From Lama guanicoe (lineage: Eukaryota): a stretch of DNA of 53,797 nt. The notes beneath the pieces are model-generated. The model was not told the DNA's origin and did no database searches. It saw only the letters and a list, made by a program, of their open reading frames with translations. The stretch is from the NCBI GenBank assembly GCA_013239625.1, contig MU053653.1, forward strand, positions 124,001 through 177,797, read 5' to 3'. A program made the translations under genes and the position numbers. Below, one piece after another: positions 27,401-51,527 of this stretch. The first letter of the stretch is position 1; each line of letters begins with the position of its first letter.

Positions 27401-30400
27401 ATCCCATCCGTGGGATTTGGGACAGAAGCTCCCTGAATGCAGTGGAATCCTGCACTGCAAGGCCCAGGCACGGCCTCTAGGCCAGACAGGAGACAGTAGG
27501 AGCCTGTAGGGGAGACGAAAAGATGGGATCCCTGGACTTGAGGGGCAGAGAGATTGGGGCACCCCACACCCAGCTAGCAAACGTGGGCTGATCTAATGCG
27601 CACTGCAGGCTGTGGCCAAAGCACCCGCATCTGAGCCAGGCCTGAGTCCTGCCCTCACTGGCCAGGGGTGATGTGGCTTAAAGTACCTCCTTACCTGGCT
27701 CACAGGGGGTGCAGTCTGACCGCTGGACAGCCCCTCTCTCTGGCTGATAGGTGCCCCTGGGGCAGGGGAACTGAGAAGCAAAGGAGGTGGAGGCAGGACA
27801 GTAATGGCCAGCAGGACACTCGTTCCCCACCACAGAGGAGGTGTTTGCCGGGCAGAAGAAGCTACAGAGGGGACAAGGTGGGAGAACGGGGCTCGGAGAG
27901 CTGCGGTGTTCCTGCGGCACAGAGAAGAGGGGAATGGCCGCCTTCCTCCCACAGCCTCAGCAGCTGCCCTGGGCTGCAGACACAGCTCTCCTGCAGCTCC
28001 AGGGACTGGTGGGAGGGTTTGTGGGGCTTAAATGGCTTAAACTGCAACAAAAGAGACCCAGGTTTGGAATTAGGAATGACTCAGCGATACCCAGCAAAGA
28101 GATCAGAGACACAAAGATGGCAAGAAGCTGTGGAAGTTCTGTGGCTTCTTAATGTCAGCGAAAACTCTTTAGGGAGCGTCTCGTCTGACCACCTCCTGTA
28201 GCAGGAACGCAGACTGTGTGCCAGCTGCACATGCGGGCCCCTGGGATGCCTTTTAGCACTTACCCCTCAGGACAAGGCTCACAGTGGCCCTGGGCAGCCA
28301 GCCCATTGTGGGTGCCTGCTGGGCAGGGCCTGGGGGTACCAGTGCCGGGGGGGCAAAAGTGTCCTGAAAGGGAAGCAGACCCAGCAGGTCAGGGCCAGGG
28401 AAGCCCCACTCCCTGGTGCTTGGAGCGGCCCTGTTCTAAACCCGACTCCTGGAGGGCCCAGAGGCCCCTTGGCCTCTGCCTGGGAGGCAGCCTTGGAGCT
28501 TGCTCCTTCCCCACCTCCGCAGGCTCCTCCTCAGGCCAGCGCCCAAGGATACCTGCAGGGCAAGGGCCACTGGTCCAGTCCTCCAGGAGGCCGTTGGGTG
28601 CGAGGGCCCCACTGAGGCAGTGGAAGCCTGTGCTGCAGAGCCCAGAAGGGCTGGCGAGGCCAGAAGAGCCGCAGTAGTAGCCAGGCGGACATGGGGAGCA
28701 GGCAGCCTGCAGGAGATGACCCCATTAAGATGTACGACTACTTTTGACCTCAGGGGCAGTGCGGTTTGGCTGGATGCAAACAGGCCCTCTCCACACCCAG
28801 ACTTTTCTCCAGACTGGGGTCTGCCTACCTCTGAGCTGAGCTTGAGATGTGGGCTGAAGGTGCCAGGTGGGCAGGGCTGGGGCACGGCCGAGCCCCTGGG
28901 GCAGTAGTGTCCCTGAGGACATGGGCCAGCTCCCTCTGCAACCAAGAGACAAGTCAGCCTGGTCACTGGGAAGGACAGGGTGAGGTGTGGGTTCTCTAGC
29001 AGCTCCACCTGCATCCCTGGTACAGGCTCTGGGCCCAGGGGGAGTCGGTCAGCTGTTTCCCAAGGCACACCTGTCACTGGTGCTGCCTGTGACCACACCC
29101 TCTGCACCTGGCTATTCCACTCCAGCCCATCCGCTCATAGCAATGGGACAGAGGGCACTGGTTGCCATGGGTTGGTGGCATCTGGAAGGGGCCCCTGAGC
29201 GGGGGGGGGTGCTCCCTGGAAAGCTCGTGCCTTAGGGGATGGATGGTGTCTGAGACCGAGGCAGGGGCTCAGCCAGATCACCAGCCACTTCAGCTCTTGC
29301 TGCAGGACCCTTAGCAGACCTCCCTGTGCTGGCTAGTGCACTAACAGTTTTCCTAGTTTCTGGAGCTGCCTCGTGGTTTCTTCCCTTCTCCTCTCCTTCA
29401 CCTCACATGGGCTGTGCTCTGAGTGGCCCGCCACCAGGGCAGCTCGCGGCAGAGGGTGGGAGGCAGCTGGTGGGCTGCTGCTGAGCAGACCGAGCTGTGG
29501 GAGCTGGGGCACGGGCTGTGCATCAGTGACCCCACCCCACAGCACCCGGGCCTCCCCGAGGGTGGTGTGACCCTTGGGGCTCACAGGAAGCTGCAGAGTG
29601 GCAGATAGCTGGACCTGGGTCAGTGGGCCTGACATCCAGCTTGGCTACTGACTGTGTGACCTCAGGCAAAGCAGACCCTATTCCTGAGCCTTAGTTTCCT
29701 TTTCTGTCAGAGGCAGGGGTTGGACTGGATCACAGGATTTTGTCCTTTGGGGCCTGGATTCAGAGCTCTAGGAACTCCATAAAACATAGTGAAAGTGTTG
29801 CCAGAGCTGTTCCAAGTCTTTGCTCAAAACATGCTAACCCCCACCTTTAGCAGGAGTGAACATAAATCTTTAAGTTGAAGAGTCCTGAGATAAGAAAGGA
29901 AGCTCCAAACAAAAAAACCCGGCTGGGACCAAGATGGCAGGGCATCTGACCTCCTCACACGCTGGCTTCACTACATCAGTGTACTGAATGACACAGCTGA
30001 CGGTGGAGGTCACTGGGCATCAAGGATAAAAGGGGGCGGTGCCGCCTCCCCCAGGAAGCCCCGCCCCCTCCGCAGGGGACGAAGGCATCTGCCTCCCCAT
30101 CATGAGCCTCACTCCTCCTTCCTTAGTCTTCTCTCTTTATTATCAAATACCCCTCCTCAGGTGGATGAGAAGCTGATCTATGAACTTAGTTCCCGCTTCT
30201 CCATTCTGTGGCCACTGAATGAAGCTTGGGCTGTGTCGATCTCAGATTCAATTTCGTTATTGGCTACTCGAACCTGAATGGAAACAGAACCCTCCCTGGC
30301 AGAGGCAGAGAACCTTGGCCAGGCTGGGGCCCATATGACTTAATTTGGTAACAAAAGCTTTGGGTGTTTTCCCTGGACATGTTTTCCTGGAAGTGTGTCC

Positions 30401-33400
30401 ATAGATTCCATCAGTTTTCAAAGGACGCTTGGTCCCTAGAAGACTAAAAACACTGGAATAATCTCTCGGCCACGCATGAGAACTGCTTGGGAAGGTTATC
30501 AAAGTGACGTACCTGGGCTGGTCTACACCCCAGAAACTGAGATTGGTGGCTTGCTCCCCTGCCCCCACCTCCCCCCGCACCAGTAGGTACTGGTGCACCA
30601 GCAACTCAGATGCACCACCATGGCACTTCACCATGGCCCTTAAGGTGAGCTTCCTCAGGCCTGGCCAGTGTGGGGTGTGGTGGTCCTTGGGGGTCCCACT
30701 GAGGATGGACAGTGAGTGGAGGAAACAATGCCAGGGCACTGTTCATTGCTGGGCCACAGCGTTCCTTCCCCCAGGAACACGAGAGGCCCAGGACAGGTGC
30801 CAGGTCTCTGGAAAGAACAGACTCCTCAGTCTCTCTGGGTGTACCAGTGAGTGAACGGGGGGCTTTGCATCTGCCCCTCGCCTCCCAGTCGAGGGCCTCA
30901 GGAAACAGGGCAGGGGCTCAACATCCATCAGGGAGGGGTCCATTATCTTCAGTGCCAGCCTCCGGGTTGGGCCGGGTGGACGCTCTGGAGCAGAAGCAGC
31001 CCTCCCAGCACTCCCCGCCAGCCTCTGTGGCATTGGCCCTGGGGCAGAACCTGCCCCCGTCACAGGCTCGACATCCCTGCAGGCTGCTCAGTCCAGGCAC
31101 AGGGCCATAGGTGCCCGCGGGACAGGGCTGCCAGTTGAGCTCTGTCCCTTCAGGGCAGTAGAAGCCTGTGAAGGGGCAGGGACGAGACTAGGGCCTGAGA
31201 AGGCAGAGAAGGGGAGGAAGCCTGGAGGAGGCCGGAGGAGGGAAAGCTCTGGGTGCTGGGCTGGGGCCTCTTTGCTGCAGGACTCCTGCCCAGGAAATGG
31301 AAATGTTCCATAAACTTATTATCATAATGTACAGCCCAAGCCTTTGCCTGAGGGGCCTGGGGGGAGATAACTGCCCTGTAGGCAACTGCCCCCACTCCTC
31401 CCTTCCGCTTTGGACCCTCCGCTCAGTCAGCTGGGCTGGCAGGACACTAACCTCTCGGACACAGCTGTGGCCTCAGCCCTGGGACACAGTAGTGGCCACT
31501 GGGACAGATGTGAAATTTCGTTGTGTGGATACTGGAGGCGTAGGAGCCAGGAGGACACAGAGGGGGGTCAGCCATTCCTGGAGGGCAGAAGTGCCCTGGG
31601 GAGCAGGATCTCCCAGAAAGCCCCTCCACAGGGGTGACGAGGACAGTTCCTCCACTGCAGGAAATGCTGGAAAAAATATGTGCTCTCAGCAGAGAACCAT
31701 GGGCAGCAAATGGACTTTAAGCATGGGCCTGGGACCTTTCCTACCCTGCTCGCTCTGGAAGCCTCCCACCTCATGTCCTCCCACCCTCCAGTCCGGCCCC
31801 CGGAGGGTCAGCCTGGCTCTTCTGAGGGGTAGGGTGGGTGGTGGCAGAGATGAGATGTGCTGCCACAAGTCTGGACACCAGTGTCCTTCCAGTGACCTGT
31901 GCAGAGCAGTCAGATCCCAGCACACGGCACTCAGCACAGCCTGACCTTTGCAGGTCTACAAGTGGCCTGTAGGCCAGTGGGGGTGGCTCCTCCCTGACCA
32001 GTAGGGATTTCCTCCTCTTGCTCTCTGGTAAGAAACCCTGAAACGGAACCAACTCCTCACTCTGTGGACGTGTCCCTTGCTGTCAGAGGAGGCACAGTGT
32101 TTGCCCACCCTGGGTGGTAGGGGGCTGGCCAGATTGGCGGGTGGCCACCAGGGCAGAGTTGCCCTCCAGAGCAGTCTCGACATCCCCTGGGGTTCTGTTT
32201 CCTTCCTCAGACCAGGTTCCAGGGGGGCATCGGGCTGGGACGGAGGCGCCTGTAGAAGTTGGAGTGACAGGTGAAAGAGGCTCTGCGCTCTGCTAGCTCC
32301 CTCTGGCCCCAGGAAGACCTTGGTCTGGGCTGGGCTCCTGTCCCCTGAGCCTCTCCCTCCGGACAGTCAGACCACGGAGGAAATGCCTCCTCGTCTCAGC
32401 TTCCAGAGGGCAGGGACCGGTTCAGTCCTGCAGTCGTCACTGAGTAAATGAAATACTTTTGCCACCCTCTCTGGTGAGGACCGAAGAGGGGGGGAACACC
32501 CAGGCCTTTAAAAAACATCCTGGGTGGGGAGTAATTGAGGCATGAGGTGCCAAGGAGGAAGGCCAGTCACCCAAGTGAGGTTTCCTGAGATCCAGGCTGG
32601 AGGAGGGTTCTTGGAGAGGGGGAAGGTGAGGACTGTTGAGCAGAGTGGGGAGGGCATCGGGGGAGAGGGGGCCTGTGCTCAGCCCTGTACAACTCAGCAC
32701 TGTCCTTCATTTAGGGGCCCTGTGGCCTGTGCTGGAAGAGGGGCTCAAAGCATGTGGAGACCCGCCTTTAACTAGCAGAGAGCTGGAAGGCAGTGGGCCT
32801 TCTGCCCTGCAGTGGTTGGCAAGGCCCCAGAAGTGGTGAGGTACCCTCTAGGCAGTAGTGCCCGGCGGGGCATAGGAGAAGAGGATGAGCTGTCAGCTGT
32901 TCCTGCCATGCCCCTCAACAGCATGAGGACCGTGGCCCCTCACCCTTTCCCCTCTCCCCACCCCCCCCCGCGATGGCCACTGGCCGTAGGAGTCCCTGGC
33001 CTGAATCCAGTCCTAGCAGCCCGGGGCCCTGGTTCAGCAAGGTCCTGAACGGGCCCTCCTCTGTTCAGTACTCAGCTCCTGGGTCAAAGCAGGTGTGCGG
33101 TCTGGGGCAGTTTGAGATTTGCCCTCCTCAGAGACTGTCAACTTTCAGGCCTGGATTTTCCTTATGTATTAAATCATTTGCAGCCATTTTACCCAGAAAC
33201 TGCCCAAACACCCCCAGAAAGTGTCCCCCTCCTTCTGCTTCCCCGAACCAGCTAAGGGGGGGAAGGGTGTGGGGTAGGGCAGAGACACTAAAGATCCTCT
33301 GAGAGAACCCTGAACACAGTGCTGGGAGGGGTGGTGGAGGCGCCTCTGCTGAGAATGGTGACTGGGGTACACTTCTGCTCTGAGGCAGGCGTGCAGCGAT

Positions 33401-36400
33401 GAGACACTCCCAATTCTGGGTGATGTCAGGATCACCTGGAGAACTTCCTAAAGCCAGACAGCTGGGCCCAACCCCACACCTCCTGGCTCTCTGAGGCGGG
33501 TCTGGGGAAGGCAGTGGAAATGCAGCCCCCTTCTAGTCCAGCAAGCCCCAGCTGCCCTGACCCCCATGCTGTCCAGCGGTCCAGGTCCACGTGTTTCCCC
33601 TGAAGCGTCTCCTCCTCAGCCTGGTCTGGGAGCCACCGCTCAAGCCCACCCGCTGCCTAAGGACTTTTCTGCCCCGGAGGACATACCTGTTGGTGCAGTG
33701 AGCCCTGCCCGTGCACAGAATTTCCCAGCAGGGCATGGCTGGCATTCAGCGATGCTCCTTAGCCCCTTCCGAGGGCCATTAGTGCCCAGTGGGCAGCTGT
33801 GGTGTGTGGCTACAGATGTGCCCAGGGGGCAGTAGTAGCCTTGAGGACAGGGGTACAGGCTGAAGTCCTGGATGGGCCCAGCACTGGAGTCACAGTAATA
33901 ACCTGGTCGGGAGTGAGGAACACTCAGGACTCCCCCTCCCTGCCACCCTGGGACGTTTAGTCCTAGCAGGGGGCCATGGAACCCAGTGCCCTGGGAACTG
34001 TGCCCCTGGAGCTCCACTCCCAGCCGCATCTCCTTTGCCAACACCCCTAGGTCTTTTCTGCCTCTCACCTGCTGGGCACTGCCCACTGGGGGCCTGGAGA
34101 CCAGCCTCCTTGCAGTAGAAGCCAGGTGGGCAGGCCTGGCACGCAGAAGGCATGGTCTGCTCCGGTAGGCTGGAGAAGGTACCAGCAGGACATGGTGTGG
34201 GTCTGCACGATGCTGCAGCTGAGAGCACAGGGTGGCCTGGATAAGGGGAGGCCACCGGTCCAGGGAGTAGGCTTCTCATGGGCAGCAGGTGTGGACCCAG
34301 CCTCAGAGATGGGCCTGTAGGACCCATCTCTGCCCAAACTCCCAGAGGCCCGGTCCCCTCTGCCACACACTTAGAGACCCCAGACCCTTTACCTGTGGCT
34401 GGAGGAGCATTACCAGGATTCATATCCCTGAGAGCGAATGAGGCTTCTGGTGCCACAAGGCCACAGCCACTGGTCCTCAGCTGTCCACACCAAATAACTC
34501 AAGCCACAGCAAACACCCCAGGTATATTTTAACCATGTCCCTCTGCAATGNNNNNNNNNNNNNNNNNNNNNNNNNNNNNNNNNNNNNNNNNNNNNNNNNN
34601 NNNNNNNNNNNNNNNNNNNNNNNNNNNNNNNNNNNNNNNNNNNNNNNNNNNNNNNNNNNNNNNNNNNNNNNNNNNNNNNNNNNNNNNNNNNNNNNNNNNN
34701 NNNNNNNNNNNNNNNNNNNNNNNNNNNNNNNNNNNNNNNNNNNNNNNNNNNNNNNNNNNNNNNNNNNNNNNNNNNNNNNNNNNNNNNNNNNNNGGCTGAG
34801 AGTCCAAGAAGACACTCACGGCAGAAGGTTCCGGGGGGGCAGGGGCCTCCTGTCAGCCCATCCTCTGGAGCTGGGGAGGCTGCTCCTTCTGCACAGAAGT
34901 AGCCACCTTGGCAGGGCCCACTGGGTGTGGAGAGGCCTGGGGGCGAGAGTAGACTCACTATGAGAAGAGGTTGATCCTGCAGGGCAGGCTGGGGGCCGTG
35001 CACAGTGTCGGGCCTCGAGGGACTTGGGGCCTCTGGACTGAGGGTCCCACCAGCGGCCAAGCCTGAGTTGAGTGCCTTGTCCCATTCTCCTCTCCATCGA
35101 GCACTGAGACGTGGTACCACTCCTGTCTCACAGGGGCCTGAGGCCCCTGCCAGCAAGCAACCAGGTTCAGTGGACTCGGGCTGGGGCCTTGGCCCCACTG
35201 TGCTCTCCAGGCTGAGAGGGACTGAGAGCTGGGGCAGGAAGAGTCTAGCTCATGTTTGGGTCCCCAGTGACAAGTGGTGTCCAGCCACAGTCGGTTCTCA
35301 GGAAGTGTGCCACAGAGCCCCTCTCTCTGCAGAGACCTGCCCTCCTCCCCGCACTGTTCTGTGTGACCCACCTGAGCTGACTCGACAGTGACGGCCACAG
35401 ATTTACGCAGCACAGCCCTGCCTGTAAGTGCACCAAGCACACCGCGTCGTGAGGCAGGTTCAGGCATCAGCTCTCAGTTTTCAGAGGAAAACCGTGGCGG
35501 CATGCTTGAGTCACACAGCTAGTGAGAGAGGGTCTAGATTCGTGGCAGCTCTCTCACCACCCTGCCTAGCCCGGGTCACAGCACAATGTCCGGAGAGGGT
35601 GCTGGTCCTCACCAGAAGTGGCGCAGAAATATCCTGGGGGGCAGGGTATGGGCTCTGGGCTGCCCTTGGGGCAGAAGGAGCCAGCCGGGCACTTTCCCCC
35701 CGTGGCTGTGGCTGGGCACAGGCAGTTGGTGCTGGTGTAGTTGTCCAGGTCGAAAGGGCGGGCAGTCCACGCTGCCGATACGCAGAACCACCCTGAGGTG
35801 GAAGCCAGCAGGGAAGGGTAAGTGGTGGGGCAGTGGTCCTGGGGGTCAAGGGCCAAGCGCCCCCAGGCCGCAGGCCCACCCCTCCCAGTAGCTGTGCCAG
35901 GGGATAGCCTGAGTCACTCCAGGTCTGGGGACAGAAGGGAGAAGCGCAGGAATAAGTGGGAACTTCTTAAGGTACTTAGGGAAACTCACCTGCATCACAG
36001 GGCCCGGAGGCCTGAGTCAGATTCTCCTGCCCGCAGTAGTGGCCTGGGGGGCAGGGTAGACAGCTGTCCAGGCTCTGGGTGAGTGGGTCTGGATTGTAGT
36101 AGCCCCGAGGGCAAGGGAACTGGGTGGCATACTTGGTGCCTGAGAAGCAAAGTTCAGAGAAGAGGGTCCAGCTTGCTGGAGTCCAGCTGGGCCCAGGGCT
36201 GGGGCGGGAGACAGTGCCACTTGCCGCTGCGTGTGCCCTCCTGCAGGGCCTGTCCCCTCACCAGTCGCTTCCACCGGACCTCCCAGGCTGTGTGGCGCTG
36301 GGCCTGGGGTCCACAAAGCCACTTATCTTCCCTGTGGTCAACTTTACTGGAAGGCATGGGGCCAAACAATTTATAACATATAGGTAATTTTAAATCTTTA

Positions 36401-42400: not shown

Positions 42401-45400
42401 TCCCTCTTCAGGTGGAAGCTGGAAATCGACGTTAAATACCTTTTCTCTACTTTTTCACATTTTTATTGGCCGTGTGTAATAGTTGTGGGCCTACCAGCTC
42501 TGTCTCTGCAGTAGTTCCATCCTGTCTTTGCTGGGGGCGCACTGTCATCCCATTAGGTGGTGAGCCCTGAAGGGCAGGCACTAGGTCTTGCCCTCTGTTG
42601 CGGCCCCCAGCCCCGGCCCAGGCCTCTGCGCTTAGGCTAGCCTTGCCTCTGGGAGGCCCAGTGGGGCCTGCACTCACCGGGGAAGAGGTGTTGGAACCAG
42701 GCCCACAGTGATACCCAGGATGGCATAGCCCCTGGGGCTCAGCCAGGCCGGCTTTGCCGCAGAAGGTCCCAGAGCGGCATGGCTGGCAGTCCTCCACGTG
42801 GGCGGCCCCAGGGGCCTCTCGGAAAGTGCCCTGGGCAGAGAGAAGAATACCACCAAGATCAAGGTCCTGGAGACCAGAATAGGGGCTCCAGGCCTGAACA
42901 GGTTGGCTACTCTGCCAAGAAGGGAGGAGAGCAGGGCCCCTTTACCCTCACCTGGGACAGGAGGAGCAGGGGAACGGGAGATCCCTGATCGAGAAATGAG
43001 CCTCCAATGAGGGGAGGCTAAGGAAAAAAAAAAAAAGAAAAAGAAGAAGAAGAAGAAAGAAATGAGCCTCCAAGACACTCGCAGGAATGGGTGGGATTTA
43101 CTTTTCGACAGATCGAAAGAGTTTGACCGCAAAGTGCCCATCCGATGAGGAGCGTCGTAGCTAGAAGTCATTCGATCTTGCTAGCAGGCAGGAAAAGAGA
43201 ACAGGCCGCCTAAGAGGTGCGTGTATCTTGGGGAGAGGAAGCCGTGGTGTAGGGGGTAGTGGGGACAGGGGGCTTATGGGGCTTGGAGAGCAAATGCTGC
43301 CCTTCCTGCCCAGGCCCCACCTGGCCTCCTTCCTTTCTCTGCGTCCCTCTCACCCCCACAAGCCTGTGTCACTTTGTCCCTTGTGACTTTCTGGTCTGGC
43401 AGCACTATCAGAAACCAGCTGCAGGAAAGTGAGCGGCCCAGCCCTCATCTGAGCTGGGGTGGGAGGAGGAGGGCTGGGTGCAAAGGCTGGACCGCTGCAC
43501 ACACCACGGTGAAGGGATGCTGTCTGTCCCACCCACCCGGACAGGGCTGATGGCTCTAGAACTTCCCCACCCAAAAGCAAAGAAAGGCTGGAAGCGTGGA
43601 GGGGAGCTTCTCACCCTGGGACAGGGGATGGACAGCAGGCCCCGGGCTGGGCAGTAGTGCCCGGGTGGACATGCAAGGGGGCTAGCCAGCTTTGTCTGGT
43701 TGCAGAGTTTTCCTCCTGGGCACTCCTGACACCAGAGACGACCTGGACCCTGGAAAGAGGGATTGGTAGTAAGGCTGGTTTCTTTCCACACCGCTAACAT
43801 TTGGGCCATGCCTGGTGCATAGCAGGCACTCAGGAAATGTGTTGAATTGCATTGGAGATGCTTCTGGCCTGGGCCCCAGGCTCTGTGTTTGCGCCTTCCT
43901 TTCTGAGGAGGGCAGGGCCTGAGAGTGCCTGAGCACAGGGCAGATGCCAGTAGAACTGAGGTGCTCTCTGGGCATCTGACTTGGTCCACACGTTGTCAGC
44001 GTCCGGAGGGAGGGCCGGGATGGAGCCTCTGCTCTGCTGGCCACCACCCCACCTCCCTTACCTTAGAACCCTCCCATTTCCAGGCCCGCTGAGGGAACAC
44101 TTACTGAGAAGCTGCCAGCACTGCATGGCCGTGGAGTGGCGGTGCCCAGCTCAGGGCAGTGGTGACCAGCTGGGCACAGCACACAGGCCACAGCCAGCCT
44201 CGCACCAGGACTCTGGCGGGAGGTTCCCCTGAAGGAGAAGTAGAGAGCTGAGGGGGTGGGGCCCACAGCCTTGCTGGGGGAGGAGCTGTGACAGCCACAT
44301 GCGGTCACCATTGTCCCCATGCACACCATAGGGTTCAAGAGCAATCAGGCCCCTAGGTAGGGCTGAGGATGTGCCCGGTGTGACCTAGTGGTAGTGAGGC
44401 ACAAGAGAGTTTGAAACCAGGCTGTGGGCTAATTGCGCTTCTTTTGAAGTGTCTGTTCCTTCGCTTTGCTTGTATTTTCCATTCGGTTTTCTCTCTGTCT
44501 TATTTTAACTGATTTGCAATGGCTCTTTGCATAATAAGGCAGTAAGTAGATGGATGTTAGCCCGTCATTCGTGCTGAAAATACCTCCCTGCTTTGTGGTT
44601 TGCCTTTTACCTTTGTTTAGGATGACTTTGAAGGACAGAAGCTATAACGTTGTCCAAATCTTACAGTCTTTTCCTCAATTATTCTGCTTTTCGTGTCACG
44701 CTTAGATTTTCCACACTCTGTCAGATTTTATTAATCTCTATTTATATTTTGTTCGTAATTTTATAATTTTTTTACATTGAAATCCATATTTGTTCTGAAA
44801 TTTATTTTGGTTAATGTTGTTTTCACTTTTTACAAGAACAAGTATTATTTTTTAAATTAAAAACTCTGAGTTTTACTTTTTGACTAGAGGAATAAAAGGC
44901 ACTTCTTGCTAAAAATGTCATATCAACAGAGAACCCCGGAGCTTGGGCCAAATCTCTGCTGAGAACTTGGCTGGCATTAGCTCCCAGCGCACTTGGCCTA
45001 TTGGCTGAGCTGCTCTGAATCAGCTTCTCCACTGGCGTGTGGGCACCTCGCCCACTGACTGCAGCCCAAAGCATTCTCCCTCTATCTATATCTGGGCCCA
45101 TGGGGTCCCGAGCCCTGGCCCCTGCCCATCCTATTCCTGTGTCTTGTCTCCAGAAGGCTGCAGGCCCTAAGGGCAGTCTGTCTTTGAAGATTCCTCAGTG
45201 CCCAGAGCAGCACTGGGCTCTAGCGGGTAACATATGGTCACTTAGCTTCAAGAACAGCCACACCCCTCAGCCTCCTTTACCGTGGGCAGAGCACAGGCTT
45301 GGGTGTTCCACGAGGGCAGAAGGCCCCTGGTGGGCAGGGCAGACAGTCTTCTGCCTGGCTGTTGCCTGCCTGAGAGCTGTAGGTGCCTGCTGGGCAGGGG

Positions 45401-48400
45401 AACTGGGTGCCCCACTTTGTACCTGCGTTAGAGAAAAAAGCAGGGGTCTGAGGAGGGAAGAGGTGGGTGGTCAGAGCTGCACTATCCAGGCACAGCAGCT
45501 CCTCACCTCCTCCCTGGGGACAGGTCCTCAAGGGAGGCCACTGGGGTTGGGCACGGAATGGGGGGTGCCACTCACTGAGGACCCAGCCTTTGTCTGGGCT
45601 GACAAGCCCTGTGACTCTCCAGTCAGGAAGCTCGCTGACTGACCACTCCCAGCCCTCCTCTCAGGAAGGTCTTCCTGAAATCTCACCTTAATCTGGGAGA
45701 CATGCAGGCTGGCCCATGCATATTTCACTCCAAATACTGACCTGTGACCTTGCCAGGGCAGTCTCTGGCCCTACTCACCTTGTGGGCAGTAATGTCCAGC
45801 TGTGCATGTCCCTGAGGGCACCTGGGCTCCACTGACACAGAACCAACCCCCGGGACAGGGCGTACACTCCTCGCCCGCAGTCAGTCCGGTCCGGTTACTC
45901 CAGGTGCCTGGGGGACACTGGAACTGGGTTGGCTGTTTGGTGCCCTGAGGGCAATAATGGCCAGCTGGGCAGGGGGTGGGGGGCCAGGCTGAACCCCCTG
46001 TTCCTGCAAACACAGTCCTGAGCTAGGCCTGAAGGAGCAGCAGCCCCTGCAGTCGCATCCCTCGGGCAGGTGGCAGGGACACTGGCTGGGGCTCAGCCCT
46101 GGGGAAGGGGTGTCTGGGTTGCAGGTGGCCCAGAGGCTGCTCCACCTGAGGCAGTGGGGCAAGACTGGGAAAGCTCTTCCTGGCCCCACCCTCAAGCACC
46201 CAATGTGGGGGAAGGAGGGGCTGTGGGCCAGGGTCTGTTTTCCTGGCCCCTGCCTTGGAGTGCAACTGGTTCTTCGCCCCTAGGCAGGGTATGGCAGGTG
46301 GCGAGGCTGCCTCTCGTGCCCCTCACTTACCTCTAGGACAGGCCAGTCCCGAGGGGCAGATCTCACACTGTGACAGGTCAGAGAGGTCCCTGCGGTTGCT
46401 GAAGGTCCCTGGGGGACAGGCATGAGTGGGAGCGTCGGGACTTGAGGAGCCCACAGGGCACATGTACCTATGACAACCGAGGAGTCAGAGCTTAGTACCC
46501 ACCATGCAGAACCCAACATCCTGGAGAATCACAATAAAATCCCCCTGGGCCCGCAGGCCTGCTGTGTGGCTTTGGCATGGTAACTTGGCCTCTCTGAGCT
46601 GCCTTTTTCCTATGGAAAAGCCAGGAGTTGCCCAGCTGCTTCCTGAGCACGCTCAGGCCCCAGTGCTCCTACAGGAGGTCCAGGAATCCTGGGCTGGTGT
46701 GACCCTGAGCTCTGCTCTGGGGCCAGGGGCTCAGCCCTCCCAAGACACTGAGACAGGTGAATACTTGGAGAAGCCTCACCTGAACCCGAGGGCCTGACTC
46801 TCTAATGGTGGTAGGAGGATTCAGAGCCCCCATCCAGTCACCCTGTCATTGAGAACTCAAAGCCCCTTACCCCGGTGTGCACTCTGTGTCTGGCTGAGTC
46901 AGCCCAGCCTGGGTGCAGGCCTTGCCTGCTGGGCACGGAGTGCAGTCTGTGGCTTCATCCTGGCCTGGGTGGGGACTGAATGTGCCTGGCTGGCATGGGA
47001 TGGGGTGGGTGGTTCCGTTGGGACAGAAGTGTCCTGCCGGGCACTGCAGACACTGGCTGAGAACTGGAGAGAGAACAGCCCACATCACTGTAGTAACAGG
47101 TAACGTATTGTGTGAAGAGAAAATCCTGAAATCTACATACCAAAAAAAAAAAAAGGCACTATAGCAAGCAAATGAAGCAGGTAAGATTAAAGGATACAAA
47201 GTCAACATAAAAAAGTCAATACTAGCCAGGGCCTCTAAGAGATATTTGTACACCCATGTTCATAGCGGCATTACTCACAGTAGCTAAAATGTGGAAGCAA
47301 CCCAAATGTCCATCAGCAGGAAAATGGATAAGCAAAATGTGGTATATATGTACAATGGAATATTGTTCAGCCTTAAAAAAGGGAAAAATTCAGATATACG
47401 TGACACTGTGGATGAACCTTGAGGATGTTATACTAAGTGAAATAAGCTAGTCATAAAAAGACAAATACCGTGTGATTCCACTTAAATGAGATACTTAGAG
47501 TTGTCAAAGTCATAGAAACAGGAAGCAGAATGCTGCTTGCCAGGAGCCTGGGGGGAAAAGGGGAATGGGGGATTATTGCCTAATGGGTACAGAGGTCTAG
47601 GTTTACAAGATGAAAAGAGCTGTGAGGATGGAAGGTGGTGATAGTTGGACATCATGAATGTATTTCATACCACTGAACTGTACACTTACAAATGGTTAAG
47701 ATGGTAACTTTTATGTATATTTTTTACCACAATAATAAACAAATCGAAAAATCCCAATAATAGCTACAAACACCAGGAAATTGAAATAAAAAATACAGTT
47801 CCATTGACAACAACCTCCAGAAACAGTAAACAATAAATCGGGAATAAATCTGACAATGTACGTGCAGGCCCTGTATACTGAGAACTGTGACCCTCTGCCA
47901 ATACTGCGTGTCCAGGAAGGAGGAGAACCAGTACTTGCACGTCTATGGGGCCCACGCGCCGCAATGTGCCGCGTGCTTCCTTCCTCCTGCACTGACTCAT
48001 TGCATTCTCCCCACAGCCCTGTGGGTGTGTTTGGGGCGGGGGTAGCTGGACTCTGCTCCTCAGAGACCACCTGGGCTCCCTGGGGGTGTGCAGGCCAAGC
48101 CGAGCACTGCGGACCCAGCACCGTCCTAGCCCATCCTGGTACAGTCAGGGTCCCCTGCCTGCTCTCACGTACATGTGGGGCAGGGCTGGCAGCCGAGGCC
48201 TCTGTCTGAGAATAAGGGGCCCAGAGGGCAGAAGAAATAGCTACCATGCTGCGGGCGTGGCTGCTGTCTAGGCTGGACAACAAAGAAACACAGGTGAGGG
48301 TGCAGGTAGATCGTGACTAACACCTGTACCTGGAGGCTGCCGATATTTGGGATTCCAGCTCAGGTGCTTACTTTTGTCAAGTGTCTTTGCAGATTCCCTA

Positions 48401-51400
48401 ACCTAAAAGAAGAGCACCGCAACGCTGCTTGCACATGTCACAGTGAGGAGGAATTAACCCTGTGAGCCACAGAGCTTCATGGTGAAGGGGTGGTTCTTAG
48501 TTTCTCCTTCTCCTCTAACTCTTGGTGGAGGCTGCAGCCCCAGGACTTACGTGCTGAGATGTAGGATGGCCTGCCTGATCCTTGTCCTCTGACCCCGTGC
48601 CACACATTGTAGGTTCCTGGTGACACGTGCTGAGTGAATGACTAAGTCATGAGGCGGCTGCTGTGGTGTTTGTGTCACAGCTCTGTAGCTTCTGCCTTAA
48701 CTGCACGCTAAGTGGGAGCAATGGCTCTGAACCTCCCAGCACTCACATGCATCATCTCCTTGATCCCTGCAGTGGCCCCAGAGGCCGGTACACTTGCTTC
48801 CAGGTTACACTGGATGGGTGAGTCCCCAGACTCCGGGTCAGAAGTGGGCAGCGACTGTTGGCTTCCTCACCACGGAGAGGTGCTAACTTCTTCCTGCCGG
48901 CTCCCTTCCCTCCCTGCCAGCCCCTGCCAAGAATGGTTGAGACAAGGAGCTGCCCTCTCCTGGGGATCACCCAGCAGTCCTTCCTTCCTGTGAGTCTGGG
49001 GAACCCATTGCCGGTTCCGGTGGGACATGGCTGAGAGCCGTCCTGCCTGCCAGGCAGCTGCAAATGCCAACAGAAGTTGAGCGACTGAGGAGAGACCCCG
49101 TAGCCCAGGGAGGTGCCAGCCAGGGGACAGTTGGGCCTTAATGGCAGCAGAGATGGCACTGAGGTCCTTTACCCCTGGCCTGGGTACGTTCAGGTTTCCC
49201 ACAAGCCTTGGCCACAGGCTGGCCCACTTTCGGCCTACCCCAACTGGGACAGGATGGATGGAGAAGGGAGAGTGTCCCCAGTTGGACGACTCAGAGCTGA
49301 TAGTCAAGGCTGGGGTCCTGGGGACAGGGTCAGTTCCTCATAGGTCTCTGGGAGGACAGCCTCAGGATGTCTGTGCAGGGTTCCCAGACCAGTCTGACCA
49401 CCCAGGGCTTGTCCTGGGGGCTCGGGGAGAAGGGGTTGAAGTTGTGGAGCCATGGGCTGAGGTGTGACCCCTTCCTCTGGTCTGAGGAGGGACCACAAGC
49501 AGCAGGAGTCACCGACAGTGAACTGGAGAGAGCAGATGGTCTGACAGCCAGCCCCACTTCCCAGGTGAGGACTTACCAGGTCACAGGACTGGGAAGCAGA
49601 GCCCAACCAGGTACCCACCCTGCACCTTGAATTCGATCGAGGTCAGAAGTCTGTGCCCTGGGCAGCCTCTGGGCGATCGACCACCGGGCATCTGTGCACA
49701 CTAGGCTGCGCCCCAGGCAGTGCTCAACCCTTGGGAGCTCATTACACTTAGGGCTGTCATGGGAAGAACCTGTATGGGTTCCCTTTGCAGGTCCCCCTCC
49801 TCCAGAGAGGGGGCAGCCACCTCGCCACCCCTCGTCCTCAGCTTGCCCTTCCTGCCCTTTCCCTCCCCCTCCCTGGGGCACAAGTGTGTCTGCTCCTTAC
49901 TAAAAGCCAGCGGGGCACTGCAGGCAGCCCCCAGCCACAGAGTGCCATTCTGACAGGCAGGCGACGGGGCCCAGGAGGCAGCAGTGGGCCCTGCTGTGGG
50001 GAGAGAGGGCGGCTGTCCCTGTGAAAAGCCGAGGAGAGGAGGGCGGCGCTGGTGTGAGACTGATGCTCCCCATGGAGCCCCTGAGTGGGGCCTTCTCTCA
50101 TGATGGTGTTTCTTCAGCAAAAGCCTGCTGTCATAATGCACCAGTCCGCACTGAGGACATGGGATGCAGTGGCTGGTATTGCGGACCACGGCTCTCCTGG
50201 GCACAGCCAGCGTGAGAGACAAGAAGAGAAAGGCACGAAGATCATGCATCGGGGGCCCCAGGTCGGCTGAGGGGCCTCCCGAGATCCTGGAAACCTGATG
50301 CGCTGAGGAAGCCTCAGGGCTTTGTTGTCCCCCTTACCTGCTCAAATTTCCAGGCTCTCAGAGCACCTGCAGTCAGCAGTGCAGAACAGCTGAGCTGACA
50401 TTTCATCTGGTCAGCCTGCTTGTTTTACACAAGGGGAAGCTGGCATGACTGGCCAGAGCCACGCTGGGACCCTGGTGCAGGGGCTGCGGTCTGTGTCCCT
50501 GCAGGTCCCAGGGCAGGGTGTGCTGCTCCTCCCTGGGCCCTCTGCCCCCACCCTCCCCGACAAGATCTCTGCTGGACTGAAGACCCAAGGAAGGGCTGCC
50601 TGGGCTTCACCTCAGAGCAGCTCAGCAAATCTTTACTTGGGACCCCAAGAGGCCCCAGGCTGTGGTGGCACAGACAGGTCTGGTTCAGATCCCAGCTTCT
50701 CCACCTACTATCATTTAGCAACTTCTCTCTAGCTCAGGTTTACTGGGACACAATACCTACCTCAGAGAATTGTGTGGACAATAAATGAAAATGATGTGTT
50801 TATATATATATATATATATATATAGTTTATATATTAAATACATATGTATTAAATAAATATATATAAATTTATATCTTATAGAAGCTATATATAATTATAT
50901 CTAAGATGCATATTTTAAGTAATCAGATATAAGATTTTATATATGTATCTATCAAACTTTCGTTTAGTAAAGACAATACAAGTACTTATTTCACATGAGG
51001 CCCAGAGAGGCAGACAGTTTATAGAGAAAAACTAATCCCCTTACAGGGCTGCCTGTAACTCCAGAGCCCGGGAGAAGGTGCAGAGAAGGATGAGAGGGCC
51101 AGAGAGAGTCAGCCCCGAGAATTCGGGTCCGCGGAGGCTGTCACTTGGGTTGGAGAGCGGGTGGAGGCCTGCAGATGAGTGCAGGTTACAGGAACCCAGA
51201 GGAGGGGCCCGCAGTGTGTGCCCCCTCCCCTGCTTTCAGGCACTGACCCAGCAGTGATGAAGGCCATGGGTTGGGCTCATAACCTAGACCTGACACTCAC
51301 TCATGCCATGCTCTTGACCAAGTCTTCTGAAAAGTGAGTTTGAGTCATATCCACGCACAGAGGTGATGAGCGTTCTCAGAGAGAATGCAGGCAGAGGCCT

Positions 51401-51527
51401 TACATCCCAGTACACAGCATGCACCCAGTTGTCGTGGCCGTTATTTCACTGCTCTTGTTGACTCACCTGCACTGAGGGCAGCGAGCAGAGGGGCCAGGGC
51501 CATCCAGAGCACATGCTGCGGTGGCAT
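365..51527 (-). CDS. Giant multi-exon gene encoding a secreted or cell-surface cysteine-repeat (GCC2/GCC3, Ephrin_rec_like) protein; partly decayed, possibly a recent pseudogene; 3' end probably outside the window
   Basis: About 48 minus-strand segments bounded by AG/GT translate to CPxG[HYF][YF]C / CPxGT[FY] repeats with matching intron phases, and there is an N-terminal hydrophobic leader exon. Resembles mouse Gm9195 / zebrafish si:ch211-286b4.4 from memory only. Confidence 0.9.
1920..2108. mobile_element. MER5A-like hAT-Charlie DNA transposon relic
   Basis: Recognisable motifs 'gcatttctgacaagcttccagg...gctgatgctgctggt...gaccacac...gagagccact'. Confidence 0.7.
3018..3142 (-). CDS. Exon [42 protein letters not shown] (copy A)
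   Basis: cctccag acceptor, gtagcg donor, 125 nt, phase 1>0. Confidence 0.8.
3285..3441. mobile_element. MER5B-like relic (duplicated at about 5522-5678)
   Basis: 'ttagaattatcc...ttttaaaaacttcctgg...gtgcagccagggctgaga' motifs. Confidence 0.5.
5255..5379 (-). CDS. Identical duplicate of the 125-nt exon (copy B)
   Basis: Same sequence and splice sites as 3018-3142. Confidence 0.8.
6664..8343. repeat. Tandem duplication, 867-bp period (6664-7530 / 7531-8343)
   Basis: Direct comparison shows about 10 substitutions; the second copy lacks a segment of about 50 bp at its end. Confidence 0.95.
8380..9070 (+). mobile_element. Old L1 (L1M) ORF1-region fragment
   Basis: A-rich; translation resembles L1 ORF1 (KMENF...[22 protein letters not shown]; 'aaacaatggaa...tgtcaaaccagaattcta'). 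Confidence 0.75.
9220..9710 (-). mobile_element. Old L1 ORF2 fragment, antisense
   Basis: 'ctcccaacttcattcttctttttaagattgtcttagctatt...tttccacataat' is typical of antisense L1 ORF2. Confidence 0.7.
10384..10596 (-). CDS. Exon [16 protein letters not shown]...[13 protein letters not shown] (last repeat exon)
   Basis: AG/GT, 213 nt, phase 1>1. Confidence 0.9.
11226..11425 (-). CDS. Exon [11 protein letters not shown]...[10 protein letters not shown]
   Basis: AG/GT, 200 nt, phase 2>1. Confidence 0.9.
11941..12067 (-). CDS. Exon [14 protein letters not shown]...TGPGQL
   Basis: AG/GT, 127 nt, phase 1>2. Confidence 0.9.
12305..12529 (-). CDS. Exon [16 protein letters not shown]...[10 protein letters not shown]
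   Basis: AG/GT, 225 nt, phase 1>1. Confidence 0.9.
12639..12809 (-). CDS. Exon [14 protein letters not shown]...YHCLSPG
   Basis: AG/GT, 171 nt, phase 1>1. Confidence 0.9.
12901..13026 (-). CDS. Exon [11 protein letters not shown]...[10 protein letters not shown]
   Basis: AG/GT, 126 nt, phase 1>1. Confidence 0.9.
13431..13567 (-). CDS. Exon [14 protein letters not shown]...CAKQCSPG
   Basis: AG/GT, 137 nt, phase 2>1. Confidence 0.88.
14980..15088 (-). CDS. Exon [13 protein letters not shown]...CPPGHYCR
   Basis: AG/GT, 109 nt, phase 1>2. Confidence 0.9.
16200..16375. repeat. Degenerate (TG)n/(TGCA)n simple repeat
   Basis: Alternating purine-pyrimidine tract. Confidence 0.85.
16829..16997 (-). 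CDS. Exon [11 protein letters not shown]...[10 protein letters not shown]
   Basis: AG/GT, 169 nt, phase 0>1. Confidence 0.9.
17315..17466 (-). CDS. Exon [17 protein letters not shown]...LLCPQ
   Basis: AG/GT, 152 nt, phase 1>0. Confidence 0.88.
17878..18042 (-). CDS. Exon [12 protein letters not shown]...[11 protein letters not shown]
   Basis: AAG acceptor, gtgagt donor, 165 nt, phase 1>1. Confidence 0.88.
18589..18735 (-). CDS. Exon [11 protein letters not shown]...[12 protein letters not shown]
   Basis: AG/GT, 147 nt, phase 1>1. Confidence 0.9.
19699..19919 (-). CDS. Exon [21 protein letters not shown]...TCPKG
   Basis: AG/GT, 221 nt, phase 2>1; an alternative donor 3 nt further is possible. 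Confidence 0.88.
20661..20875 (-). CDS. Exon [19 protein letters not shown]...GTCDAG
   Basis: AG/GT, 215 nt, phase 0>2. Confidence 0.9.
21964..22067 (-). CDS. Exon [16 protein letters not shown]...PIKHK
   Basis: AG/GT, 104 nt, phase 1>0. Confidence 0.88.
22564..22719 (-). CDS. Exon [21 protein letters not shown]...CELCPAG
   Basis: AG/GT, 156 nt, phase 1>1. Confidence 0.88.
23583..23807 (-). CDS. Exon [17 protein letters not shown]...FYCEASSTG
   Basis: AG/GT, 225 nt, phase 1>1. Confidence 0.9.
23912..24050 (+). mobile_element. MIR SINE relic
   Basis: 'ggctttggagccaaac...ctctctgaactcagg..tttcatctataaaa...ttgtgaggataaatgag' MIR core. Confidence 0.65.
24859..25058 (-). CDS. Exon [10 protein letters not shown]...[11 protein letters not shown]
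   Basis: AG/GT, 200 nt, phase 2>1. Confidence 0.9.
25439..25559 (-). CDS. Exon [13 protein letters not shown]...CKTCPAGK
   Basis: AG/GT, 121 nt, phase 1>2. Confidence 0.9.
26714..26869 (-). CDS. Exon [15 protein letters not shown]...SGHSPG
   Basis: AG/GT, 156 nt, phase 1>1. Confidence 0.9.
27330..27503 (-). CDS. Exon GSYCLLSG...[10 protein letters not shown]...PCPAG
   Basis: AG/GT, 174 nt, phase 1>1. Confidence 0.9.
27695..27861 (-). CDS. Exon FFCPANTSS...CTPCEPG
   Basis: AG/GT, 167 nt, phase 2>1. Confidence 0.9.
28264..28363 (-). CDS. Exon [11 protein letters not shown]...CEPCPEG
   Basis: AG/GT, 100 nt, phase 1>2. Confidence 0.9.
28553..28706 (-). CDS. Exon [12 protein letters not shown]...SGPCPAG
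   Basis: AG/GT, 154 nt, phase 0>1. Confidence 0.9.
28829..28935 (-). CDS. Exon [12 protein letters not shown]...KLSSE
   Basis: AG/GT, 107 nt, phase 1>0. Confidence 0.9.
29600..29710 (+). mobile_element. MIR SINE relic
   Basis: 'ctactgactgtgtgacctcaggcaa...ctgagccttagtttcctttt' core. Confidence 0.6.
29796..30353 (+). mobile_element. ERV1-type solo LTR (558 bp)
   Basis: TGTTGCCA...TGGTAACA inverted termini; 4-bp TSD AAAG (29792-29795, 30354-30357); internal CCAAGATGGC and GC boxes. Confidence 0.8.
30947..31165 (-). pseudogene. Repeat exon [12 protein letters not shown]...PEAGTE with dead donor (AT instead of GT)
   Basis: 219 nt open, phase 1>1; the expected donor position reads G|ataatg. 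Confidence 0.8.
31452..31666 (-). CDS. Exon ISCSGG...CSPGHFC...LCPRG (partly degenerate)
   Basis: ttttttccag acceptor, gttagt donor, 215 nt, phase 2>1; one Cys apparently replaced (TTKFHIC). Confidence 0.7.
32109..32249 (-). pseudogene. Frameshifted repeat exon [35 protein letters not shown]...HPG
   Basis: ttctacag acceptor; the Cys motif switches frame at about 32184-32190, and the next exon requires the shifted phase. Confidence 0.75.
32845..32889 (-). pseudogene. Exon remnant [12 protein letters not shown]
   Basis: Clear repeat motif, weak donor, no good acceptor, upstream frame broken. Confidence 0.6.
33425..33560. mobile_element. MER5-like relic
   Basis: 'aggatcacctggagaactt..taaa...gctgggccc...gggtctgggg' motifs. 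Confidence 0.45.
33687..33902 (-). CDS. Exon [22 protein letters not shown]...GLTAPTG
   Basis: AG/GT, 216 nt, phase 1>1. Confidence 0.9.
34069..34218 (-). CDS. Exon [15 protein letters not shown]...GQCPAG
   Basis: AG/GT, 150 nt, phase 1>1. Confidence 0.88.
34551..34793. other. Assembly gap (243 N), intronic
   Basis: N run. Confidence 1.
34820..34936 (-). CDS. Exon [15 protein letters not shown]...CPPGTFC
   Basis: AG/GT, 117 nt, phase 1>1. Confidence 0.9.
35613..35792 (-). CDS. Exon [35 protein letters not shown]...CATSG
   Basis: AG/GT, 180 nt, phase 1>1. Confidence 0.92.
35990..36139 (-). CDS. Exon [18 protein letters not shown]...GPCDAG
   Basis: AG/GT, 150 nt, phase 1>1. Confidence 0.92.
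36668..36871 (-). CDS. Exon [15 protein letters not shown]...GFYCPRG
   Basis: AG/GT, 204 nt, phase 1>1. Confidence 0.92.
38105..38244 (-). CDS. Exon [18 protein letters not shown]...PNPTG
   Basis: AG/GT, 140 nt, phase 2>1. Confidence 0.9.
38997..39123 (-). CDS. Exon GAEVTHPDG...[10 protein letters not shown]...GTFSDR
   Basis: AG/GT, 127 nt, phase 1>2. Confidence 0.88.
39780..40182 (-). pseudogene. Probable fossil repeat exons
   Basis: Fragments [13 protein letters not shown] and TCHPAFF in shifting frames; residual gtgagg donor at about 39963. Confidence 0.4.
41020..41160 (-). CDS. Exon [10 protein letters not shown]...[13 protein letters not shown]...[13 protein letters not shown] (two Cys apparently lost)
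   Basis: AG/GT, 141 nt, phase 1>1. Confidence 0.7.
41435..41636 (-). CDS. Exon [15 protein letters not shown]...GPCAPG
   Basis: AG/GT, 202 nt, phase 0>1. Confidence 0.9.
42678..42830 (-). CDS. Exon GTFREAPG...[10 protein letters not shown]
   Basis: AG/GT, 153 nt, phase 0>0. Confidence 0.9.
42992..43073 (+). mobile_element. Extremely 5'-truncated retro-insertion (50 bp, mostly A-rich tail) with 16-bp TSD
   Basis: AGAAATGAGCCTCCAA at 42992-43007 and 43058-43073 flanks tgaggggaggctaagg plus an A/(AAG)n tail. Confidence 0.85.
43615..43749 (-). CDS. Exon [13 protein letters not shown]...SIPCPR
   Basis: AG/GT, 135 nt, phase 0>0. Confidence 0.9.
44105..44228 (-). CDS. Exon GTSRQSPG...CPAGHHC...CSAGSFS
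   Basis: AG/GT, 124 nt, phase 2>0. Confidence 0.9.
44430..44820 (-). mobile_element. Old L1 (L1ME-like) fragment, antisense
   Basis: T-rich; 'tgaagtgtctgttc...tttgtggtttgccttttac' L1 pattern. Confidence 0.6.
45281..45422 (-). CDS. Exon [15 protein letters not shown]...VLCPR
   Basis: AG/GT, 142 nt, phase 1>2. Confidence 0.9.
45779..46003 (-). CDS. Exon [18 protein letters not shown]...GHYCPQG
   Basis: AG/GT, 225 nt, phase 1>1. Confidence 0.92.
46331..46467 (-). CDS. Exon [10 protein letters not shown]...[10 protein letters not shown]
   Basis: AG/GT, 137 nt, phase 2>1. Confidence 0.9.
46871..47063 (-). CDS. Exon [19 protein letters not shown]...ECTPG (first intact repeat exon)
   Basis: tctctctccag acceptor, gtaagg donor, 193 nt, phase 1>2. 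Confidence 0.88.
47098..47900 (+). mobile_element. L1MB-like 3' end (about 47229-47740) inserted in an older L1 ORF2 fragment
   Basis: 'acacccatgttcatagc...tggaagcaacccaaatgtcc...atggttaagatggtaa' 3' end; flanks 'ggatacaaagtcaacata' and 'ggaataaatctgacaa' resemble ORF2. Confidence 0.85.
48173..48267 (-). pseudogene. Decayed exon candidate SYFFCPLG...GCQPCPT
   Basis: Cys motif with AG/GT; phase incompatible with the upstream candidates. Confidence 0.45.
48551..48616 (-). pseudogene. Decayed exon candidate GTYNVWHG...SGRPS
   Basis: AG and gtaagt donor; GTYN motif with Cys positions replaced. Confidence 0.35.
49901..49993 (-). pseudogene. Decayed exon candidate (ACQNGT and [10 protein letters not shown] in different frames)
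   Basis: Strong acceptor ctctctccccacag and gtaagg donor; motifs split across frames. Confidence 0.5.
50670..50795 (+). mobile_element. MIR relic
   Basis: 'ggttcagatcccagct...aatacctacctcagagaattgtgtgg...aaatga'. Confidence 0.55.
50800..50960. repeat. (TA)n microsatellite and AT-rich low-complexity tract
   Basis: Direct observation. Confidence 0.9.
51467..51527 (-). CDS. First coding exon: signal peptide [20 protein letters not shown]
   Basis: ATG, hydrophobic core with small residues at the likely cleavage site, perfect CAG|gtgagt donor, phase 1. Confidence 0.75.

What the first reader, a model, noticed from the sequence alone, without database searches (positions are those of the whole stretch)
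28829..51527. Decay clusters in blocks that can each be skipped in frame, suggesting repeat-array pruning
Lesions concentrate at 48-50 kb, 39.2-41.2 kb and 30.9-33.1 kb, while long exon runs between them look intact. Each block is flanked by phase-1 junctions. 51467>47063 gives ...[15 protein letters not shown]; 41435 or 41020>39123 stays in frame; 33687>28935 gives ...[15 protein letters not shown]. This suggests the protein rod was shortened by retiring whole exon groups while the rest stayed under selection, rather than uniform pseudogenisation.
Basis: partly seen in the sequence, partly recalled or inferred. Interest (0 to 1): 0.75.

Follow-up and report, generated by a model that had tools for sequence, protein, structure and literature searches.

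The report
Staged exon-block loss in camelid Gm9195
This is the camelid copy of a little-studied repeat-protein gene (mouse Gm9195) that mammals likely shortened by dropping whole groups of exons: two decayed groups still lie here as fossils, the third damaged group is likely recent and is spliced in the RNA of a more distant relative, and this particular copy is likely broken further downstream.

Summary
The gene is the camelid orthologue of mouse Gm9195, a cysteine-rich repeat protein with one predicted membrane helix.

Blocks A (48-50 kb) and B (39-41 kb) are old fossils of exons that are intact in reptile and bird models. Three further segments (about 345, 275 and 145 aa) are gone without trace, so mammals lost roughly 30% of the repeat region.

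Block C (31-33 kb) differs. It is whole in 11 of 17 mammal models and spliced in RNA from a more distant camelid. Its largest lesion is absent from a second contig of this assembly and from two DNA runs. Its frameshift varies between animals; its donor loss is real. No listed RNA joint shows the proposed skip.

Verdict: modular pruning is real and larger than proposed, block C is young and unfinished, and this allele is likely null.

The parts
51467..51527 (-). E1, ATG and signal-peptide-like first exon, phase-1 donor
   Evidence: matches Rousettus, otter, Tupaia and jaguar model starts
49873..50018 (-). Block A fossil exon A1: acceptor present, two in-frame stops, no GT where the reptile exon ends (inferred)
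   Evidence: 38-43% to Anolis and chicken N-terminal segment; 51% to jaguar model; sequence
48956..49054 (-). Block A fossil exon, weak match
   Evidence: 34-37% to chicken, Anolis and jaguar
48174..48272 (-). Block A fossil exon, last one detected before X1
   Evidence: 35-39% to reptiles; 58% to jaguar
41435..47063 (-). Live exons X1-X8, all AG/GT and in phase; the 355-nt X5-X6 intron is where reptiles hold about 345 extra aa
41020..41160 (-). X9, open but cysteine-poor: two of the four reptile cysteines are replaced in 6 of 6 placental models
40773..40918 (-). Block B fossil exon B1: open frame, 5 aa shorter than in cats, donor lost (inferred)
   Evidence: open in cat models and one stoat isoform, skipped in ferret, mink, raccoon dog, otter and C. 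ferus models
40046..40096 (-). Possible second block B remnant, weak
   Evidence: 35% over 17 aa to alligator
33687..39123 (-). Live exons X10-X17; assembly gap at 34551-34793
32845..32878 (-). X18, 3' part only in the window; the 5' part is present in contig C8791 (whose canonical acceptor reads AT) and 78 extra letters are present in DNA runs X1 and X11
32109..32249 (-). X19, one base short near 32185; intact in C8791, X11 and RNA run X17, one base short in X1
31452..31666 (-). X20, open; one Cys>Phe change relative to X11 and X17
30947..31165 (-). X21, open, donor reads AT in the window, C8791, C53880 and X1; 219 nt, skippable in frame alone
5255..28935 (-). Live exons X22-X47, all AG/GT and in phase; reptiles hold about 275 extra aa near X25-X27 and about 145 aa between X29 and X30
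2079..6551 (.). 2236-nt tandem duplicate (99.7% identical) that doubles X47; likely an assembly artefact, untested
365..493 (-). X48 with a 1-base insertion and a TAA at a conserved Cys; the shifted frame stops in the next exon, upstream of the membrane helix
   Evidence: identical in contig C51295; intact in V. pacos model P0164

Best explanation
This is the camelid orthologue of mouse Gm9195, a predicted single-pass membrane protein whose cysteine-rich repeat region was likely shortened in mammals by in-frame loss of whole exon groups at different times; blocks A and B are likely old fossils, block C is likely a young and still variable lesion cluster, and the sequenced allele is likely null because of a frameshift in X48. 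Mechanism: about two thirds of the introns are phase 1 (shown), so a deletion or splice-site loss of an exon group often leaves the frame open (shown in silico). Neighbouring exons whose cysteine partners are gone would then relax and decay (inferred from X9). Three stages lie side by side: three segments deleted without trace, two fossil blocks (A, B), and block C. In block C the X21 donor loss would force a skip, and the X18 acceptor change and X19 frameshift likely followed under local relaxation (order inferred, about even odds).
For: Orthology: collinear exon-by-exon match to Peromyscus 'Predicted gene 9195', with mouse and rat in the same cluster. Ancestral segments: four Podarcis segments align in place in bird and frog models and in most fish and shark models that reach them, but at 0.0-0.3 coverage in ferret, mangabey, otter and Peromyscus. 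A and B remnants score above nulls. Old relaxation: block A is 37-58% identical to jaguar, against 76-98% for most live exons to leopard. X9 lost the same two cysteines in 6 of 6 placental models. Constraint on the rest: 243 of 244 ferret cysteines kept; 31 of 1368 aa differ from C. ferus against about 5.8% expected if neutral. Block C young: 3 of 174 aa differ from C. ferus; RNA joints X17>X18 and X20>X21, and a lariat-like joint for the X19-X20 intron. Local cluster: P about 0.02-0.03 for 3 of 4 lesioned exons within 4 consecutive exons, computed after the fact. Null allele: X48 lesion in two contigs; 13 window-derived against 4 V. pacos-derived aa changes (p=0.049), 10 of the 13 in X48 or downstream.
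Against: No RNA from the window's own close relatives was laid, and no skip junction (E1>X1, X9>X10, X17>X22, X20>X22) was seen in RNA. All other-species evidence is from automatic gene models, not DNA or transcripts. Cat models keep much of block A and B1 in an open frame, and mustelid models keep one block A exon, so 'fossil in all placentals' is too strong. Rousettus and Cercocebus show partial coverage (up to 0.7) of some segments in the global alignment. Block B's match to Podarcis barely exceeds its null. The two contigs that carry the X48 lesion are identical over 921 nt and may come from the same reads; this part of the assembly holds near-identical duplicates. The neutral yardstick of 2.8% is my hand sum from the listed rows and assumes those RNA runs are as distant as C. 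ferus. A Cys>Tyr change in X26 on C8791 lies outside the blocks.
Confidence: 0.65

Rival explanations
1. The gene is still functional in South American camelids; block C is being retired through an X17>X22 or X18>X22 skip, and the X48 lesion is an assembly error or a private allele.
For: Three splice or frame lesions within about 2 kb. The V. pacos model joins X20 to X22 and has X48 intact. Ferret X18-X21 hold 24 cysteines (even) while X21 alone holds 7. Phyllostomus and yak models both lack X16-X21.
Against: No such joint among those listed (4 joints not shown; the RNA was from a more distant camelid). X19 is intact on other haplotypes. The excess of window-derived changes from X48 onward fits a real lesion.
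Confidence: 0.25
2. The whole gene is losing constraint in South American camelids, and the block C cluster is chance among early lesions.
For: X48 frameshift and stop; 13 against 4 derived changes. C8791 differs by 4 missense changes including Cys>Tyr, 3 silent changes and the X19 indel in 2057 exon-region sites. The V. pacos model is fragmentary.
Against: Cluster P about 0.02-0.03. The V. pacos branch has only 4 derived changes in 1357 sites. X1-X17 and X22-X47 keep all splice sites and frame.
Confidence: 0.25
3. Block C and X48 lesions are mostly assembly errors, and the real gene is intact apart from blocks A and B.
For: The X18 loss is not in C8791, X1 or X11. 32880-34550 differs from X1 at 35 letters against 6 in 29844-32878. 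Near-identical tandem duplicates at 2-8 kb.
Against: The X21 AT donor is in three contigs and in independent run X1. X1 is also one base short in X19. C8791 has an AT acceptor at X18.
Confidence: 0.08

Closest known systems
Mouse Gm9195 and its vertebrate orthologues (database labels: zonadhesin-like, SCO-spondin-like, MEGF6-like)
   Same: Collinear exons, PF07699 repeats, same C-terminal region and membrane helix.
   Different: Mouse, rat and hamster models start near the end of X8 and skip X9 and B1, while the camelid keeps X1-X9. Block C and X48 are damaged here and whole in rodent models.
Evolutionary exon loss by deletion or weakened splice sites (review PMC12992808, passages read: CMAH, TNNI3 exon 3)
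   Same: Formerly constitutive exons are lost by genomic deletion or splice-site loss.
   Different: Here groups of exons in one repeat array were lost several times, with deleted, fossil and still-variable stages side by side. No phenotype is known.
In-frame shortening of repeat rods, such as Becker-type dystrophin deletions and loss of tropoelastin exons in primates (recalled, no call)
   Same: A repeat array tolerates in-frame removal of units.
   Different: Those are disease alleles or single exons; the disulfide-bonded repeat and multi-exon blocks here differ.
Unitary pseudogene or segregating null allele
   Same: X48 frameshift and stop upstream of the membrane helix, with excess missense changes downstream.
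   Different: Upstream exons are still conserved, and the V. pacos model is intact at X48.

Membership tests
Gm9195 orthologue group | Collinear exon-by-exon similarity to Gm9195 | tested here: met
   P0126 chain across the window and downstream; mouse and rat in its cluster
Gm9195 orthologue group | PF07699-like cysteine repeats as the only Pfam family | tested here: met
   Only PF07699 for ferret, alpaca and Podarcis proteins; five single window exons stay below the curated cut-off
Gm9195 orthologue group | Single membrane helix after the repeats | tested here: met
   Hydrophobic exon downstream of the window; predicted helix 339-362 at pLDDT above 90 in the alpaca model
Gm9195 orthologue group | Conserved neighbouring genes | not tested
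   The window ends at its contig's end; flanking genes were not compared
Zonadhesin, SCO-spondin or MEGF6 (database labels) | Their own domains (MAM, VWD, TSP1, EGF; recalled) | tested here: not met
   No such Pfam family at E<=0.01 in 3 of 3 orthologues
In-frame exon-group loss | Lost exons are ancestral | tested here: met
   Present in place in reptile, bird, frog and fish models; remnants in the window for A and B
In-frame exon-group loss | Flanking junction keeps the frame | tested here: met
   weak, since 21 of 44 four-exon blocks do so
In-frame exon-group loss | Remaining exons under purifying selection | tested here: met
   31 of 1368 aa against about 5.8% neutral; 243 of 244 Cys kept; protein-level only, no dS
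In-frame exon-group loss | Skip junction is the main transcript, blocks A and B | not tested
   No RNA was laid there; X8>X10 and X9>X10 seen only in gene models, E1>X1 in none examined
In-frame exon-group loss | Skip junction is the main transcript, block C | tested here: inconclusive
   RNA from a more distant camelid includes block C; no RNA from close relatives was laid
Unitary pseudogene | Disabling lesion in an essential exon | tested here: inconclusive
   X48 lesion in two identical contigs, not checked against reads; an X47>X50 skip would be in frame
Unitary pseudogene | Lesion fixed in the lineage | tested here: not met
   V. pacos model is intact at X48; fixation within the window's own species was not testable
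Unitary pseudogene | Neutral evolution along the whole gene | tested here: not met
   3 window-derived changes in about 830 sites upstream against 10 in about 530 from X48 on, p about 0.008

The most novel reading that the evidence does not exclude
A four-exon repeat module is being retired right now in South American camelids: one donor loss forced a skip that unpaired a cysteine, neighbouring exons then relaxed, and their lesions still segregate among living animals. With two fossil blocks and three deleted blocks in the same gene, this is a full time series of how a disulfide-repeat protein is pruned in cysteine register.
Probability: 0.3. Interest if true: 0.55.

Novelty: new member of a known kind. 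Interest (0 to 1): 0.36.

Why it matters
Exon loss is a known route of protein evolution, but it is usually inferred from end points. This gene shows deleted, fossil and still-variable exon blocks together, and block C can be tested in living animals by genotyping and long-read RNA. The case also corrects annotation: database names such as zonadhesin or SCO-spondin are not supported by domains, and one of the striking lesions is not shared by the second contig of the same assembly. The protein's function is unknown in print as far as my searches went, which limits the wider importance.

Tried and rejected
1. Phase-1 flanking as evidence of design: rejected, base rate 20 of 44.
2. The X18 deletion as a lineage lesion: rejected.
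3. Block C as an old retired block: rejected.
4. Remnants of the three large reptile segments in the short introns: no convincing match, best hits 17-20 bits, not compared with nulls. The ferret's last block A exon has no clear remnant in the window.
5. A home-made frameshift-aware aligner overfitted with cheap introns; only its total scores against 8 shuffles are used.
6. Long own-genome searches were crowded by repeats and did not list the window itself, so they say nothing about other haplotypes. Searches for a differing second haplotype downstream found none.
7. Lack of RNA cover over parts of 28.5-35.5 kb is not used as evidence. Blocks A, B and X48 were not checked against reads.
8. The protein atlas gave only an unnamed cluster at 0.77, a lead at most. 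The fold search gave no match at E<=0.001.
9. Three look-ups in earlier findings returned nothing.
10. Paper searches showed nothing on this gene's evolution; for only 20 of 63, 15 of 17 and 15 of 24 papers were listed. No supplements were read, and supplementary gene-loss tables could hold this gene.
11. The B1 column gave false positives at its 50% threshold; the printed junctions were used instead.

Full report
Identity. The window is G000:C1340:124001-177797. It holds a minus-strand gene of cysteine-rich repeats. One exon found a Camelus ferus protein at 97% identity. Wider searches found orthologues from mammals to fish, including Peromyscus 'Predicted gene 9195', with mouse and rat in the same cluster. 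The window is closer to the Vicugna pacos model (9 of 828 aa differ) than to C. ferus (31 of 1368 outside block C), so I infer a South American camelid. Pfam finds only PF07699 in three orthologues. The gene continues beyond the window's left edge through a predicted membrane helix.

Exon model. I placed E1 and X1-X48 in the window (X29 corrected to 25058-24859). X1-X17 and X22-X47 all have AG and GT and matching phases. The path that skips blocks A, B and C gives 2321 codons without a stop. This says little, because 20 of 44 four-exon blocks are phase 1 at both ends and 40 of 47 exons lie in an in-frame skip of one or two exons.

Blocks A and B are real fossils. Lizard, alligator and chicken proteins chain along the whole gene and hit 50022-49873, 49054-48960, 48266-48174 and 40877-40773 in order. 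Best scores exceed 40 shuffles each, clearly for A and narrowly for B. Identity to cat models is 37-58% in block A and 57% in B1, against 76-98% for most live exons, so relaxation is old (inference). Decay is graded, not uniform. Cat models keep much of A and B1 in an open but cysteine-poor frame; ferret, mink, raccoon dog, otter and C. ferus models join X9 to X10; mouse, rat and guinea pig models join X8 to X10. No model examined joins E1 to X1. X9 is open and has lost the same two cysteines in 6 of 6 placental models. That fits loss of a partner in the retired exon, but the pairing is inferred and was not tested.

Three more Podarcis segments (about 345, 275 and 145 aa) align in place in bird and frog models and in most fish and shark models that reach them, but are absent or nearly so from ferret, mangabey, otter and Peromyscus; the dunnart model also lacks the last two. 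The matching camelid introns are 355, 191 and 460, and 1051 nt, with no convincing remnant. With A and B, about 1050-1100 of about 3650 residues are gone (my sum). The remaining exons stayed constrained: 243 of 244 ferret cysteines are kept, and divergence from C. ferus is 2.3% against about 5.8% (4.9-6.9%) simulated for neutral change at 2.8% DNA divergence. The 2.8% is my hand sum (86 differences in about 3110 letters) from the listed contigs of the two RNA runs, whose organisms are coded; I infer that they are Old World camels. X30 was left out of the C. ferus count because that model misaligns there.

Block C is young. All four exons are present in 11 of 17 one-per-species mammal models, partly present in 4 (dunnart, fox, mangabey, lynx) and absent in 2 (Phyllostomus, yak). 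Identity to ferret equals that of live exons (145 of 174 against 1913 of 2268). I laid 4 of the 24 listed runs on 28500-35500. RNA run X17 joins X17 to X18 through about 70 letters that the window lacks, joins X20 to X21 at GT-AG, and has a contig ending at 30947. RNA run X20 shows a back-joint from 32108 to 31685, next to an A at 31686, which I read as the lariat of the X19-X20 intron. No 33687>28935 joint is listed; 4 joints were not shown, and these RNAs are not from the closest relatives.

The three lesions differ in status. The X18 loss is absent from both DNA runs (78 extra letters) and from contig C8791 of the same assembly. C8791 nevertheless reads AT at the canonical acceptor, with in-frame AG sites 3 and 15 nt downstream; the base in X1 and X11 is not shown. 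X19 is intact in C8791, X11 and X17 and one base short in X1, though with a different letter than the window. The X21 donor reads AT in the window, C8791, C53880 and X1; X11 has one unlisted difference in that contig and is undetermined. The V. pacos model joins X20 to X22. Three of four lesioned exons falling within four consecutive exons has P about 0.02-0.03 after the fact, which favours local relaxation but does not prove it.

X48 (493-365) has a 1-base insertion and a TAA where other models have Cys. The shifted frame stops in the next exon, before the membrane helix; nonsense-mediated decay would be expected (established knowledge). Contig C51295 is identical there but may not be independent. 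The V. pacos model is intact. Window-derived amino acid changes number 13 against 4 for V. pacos, with 2 unpolarised, in 1357 sites (p=0.049); 10 of the 13 lie in X48 or downstream. This fits a real null haplotype. Against it, the region beside X48 holds near-identical tandem duplicates, and no reads were laid there.

How it most likely works. Shown: phase-1-rich introns, five ancestral segments missing or decayed, conserved flanking exons, inclusion of block C in a relative's RNA, and variable lesions among close relatives. Inferred: that skips are the main transcripts, that the X21 donor loss came first, that cysteine pairing drives the spread of decay (ferret X18-X21 hold 24 cysteines, X21 alone 7), and that this allele is null. 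The repeat region's rod shape was not tested. A model of the alpaca membrane-proximal part (mean pLDDT 67) had only weak, consistent matches to cupredoxin folds, E>=0.003.

Literature. A search for Gm9195 found 2 papers. I read the single passage in each; both only list the gene (PMC12528612; 10.1101/2022.11.16.516757). From PMC12992808 I read six passages on exon loss, which name genomic deletion and weakened splice sites as the routes. PMC4298176 was not held; I saw only its citation. Other papers were seen as search listings only. No supplements were read.

Verdict. Observation partly confirmed; interpretation partly supported. The process is of a known kind, here in an undescribed gene, with a useful side-by-side series of stages. 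Interest 0.36.

Noticed in passing
window 2079-6551 and 6664-8343: Two near-identical direct duplicates (2236 nt at 99.7%, 813 nt at 98.8%). The first doubles X47, which would shift the frame if both copies were spliced. Likely assembly artefacts.
   Followed up: partly
window 31685-32108 (RNA run X20): A back-joint from the intron's 5' end to a site 19 nt before the acceptor, at depth 15.9: it looks like an intron lariat that maps the branch point.
   Followed up: partly
window 34551-34793: The 243-N gap is bridged by 141 letters in both DNA runs; a 27-nt and a 2-nt stretch nearby (34293, 34364) are absent from both runs.
   Followed up: partly
G000:C8791 (L010, L011): A second contig over window 35394-24771, nearly identical across block C (5 mismatches in 4033 nt) but 1.4-5% different in the flanks; it carries a Cys>Tyr change in X26.
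   Followed up: partly
proteins P0122, P0345, P0347 against P0357: Leopard, clouded leopard and jaguar models lack X27-X29 and X37-X38 (jaguar also X36), which the cheetah model keeps, and their gene is split into two models around X8: possible further in-frame pruning in big cats.
   Followed up: partly
proteins P0134 and P0165: Phyllostomus and yak models lack the same 349-aa block, X16-X21; automatic models, unverified.
   Followed up: partly
L001, L005 (downstream of the window; model of P0164 C-terminal part): The membrane-proximal domain is predicted as beta-rich with weak cupredoxin-like fold matches (E>=0.003).
   Followed up: partly
searches hit lists: Similar giant repeat proteins occur in oomycetes, brown algae, Toxoplasma and ctenophores; orthology and any link to cilia were not tested.
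   Followed up: no
window 22667-22680: A poly-C run in X31 adds two prolines relative to C. ferus and stays in frame.
   Followed up: no
window 28968-29081 and 29701-29844 (RNA run X20): One RNA contig joins two intronic pieces between X21 and X22; unexplained.
   Followed up: no
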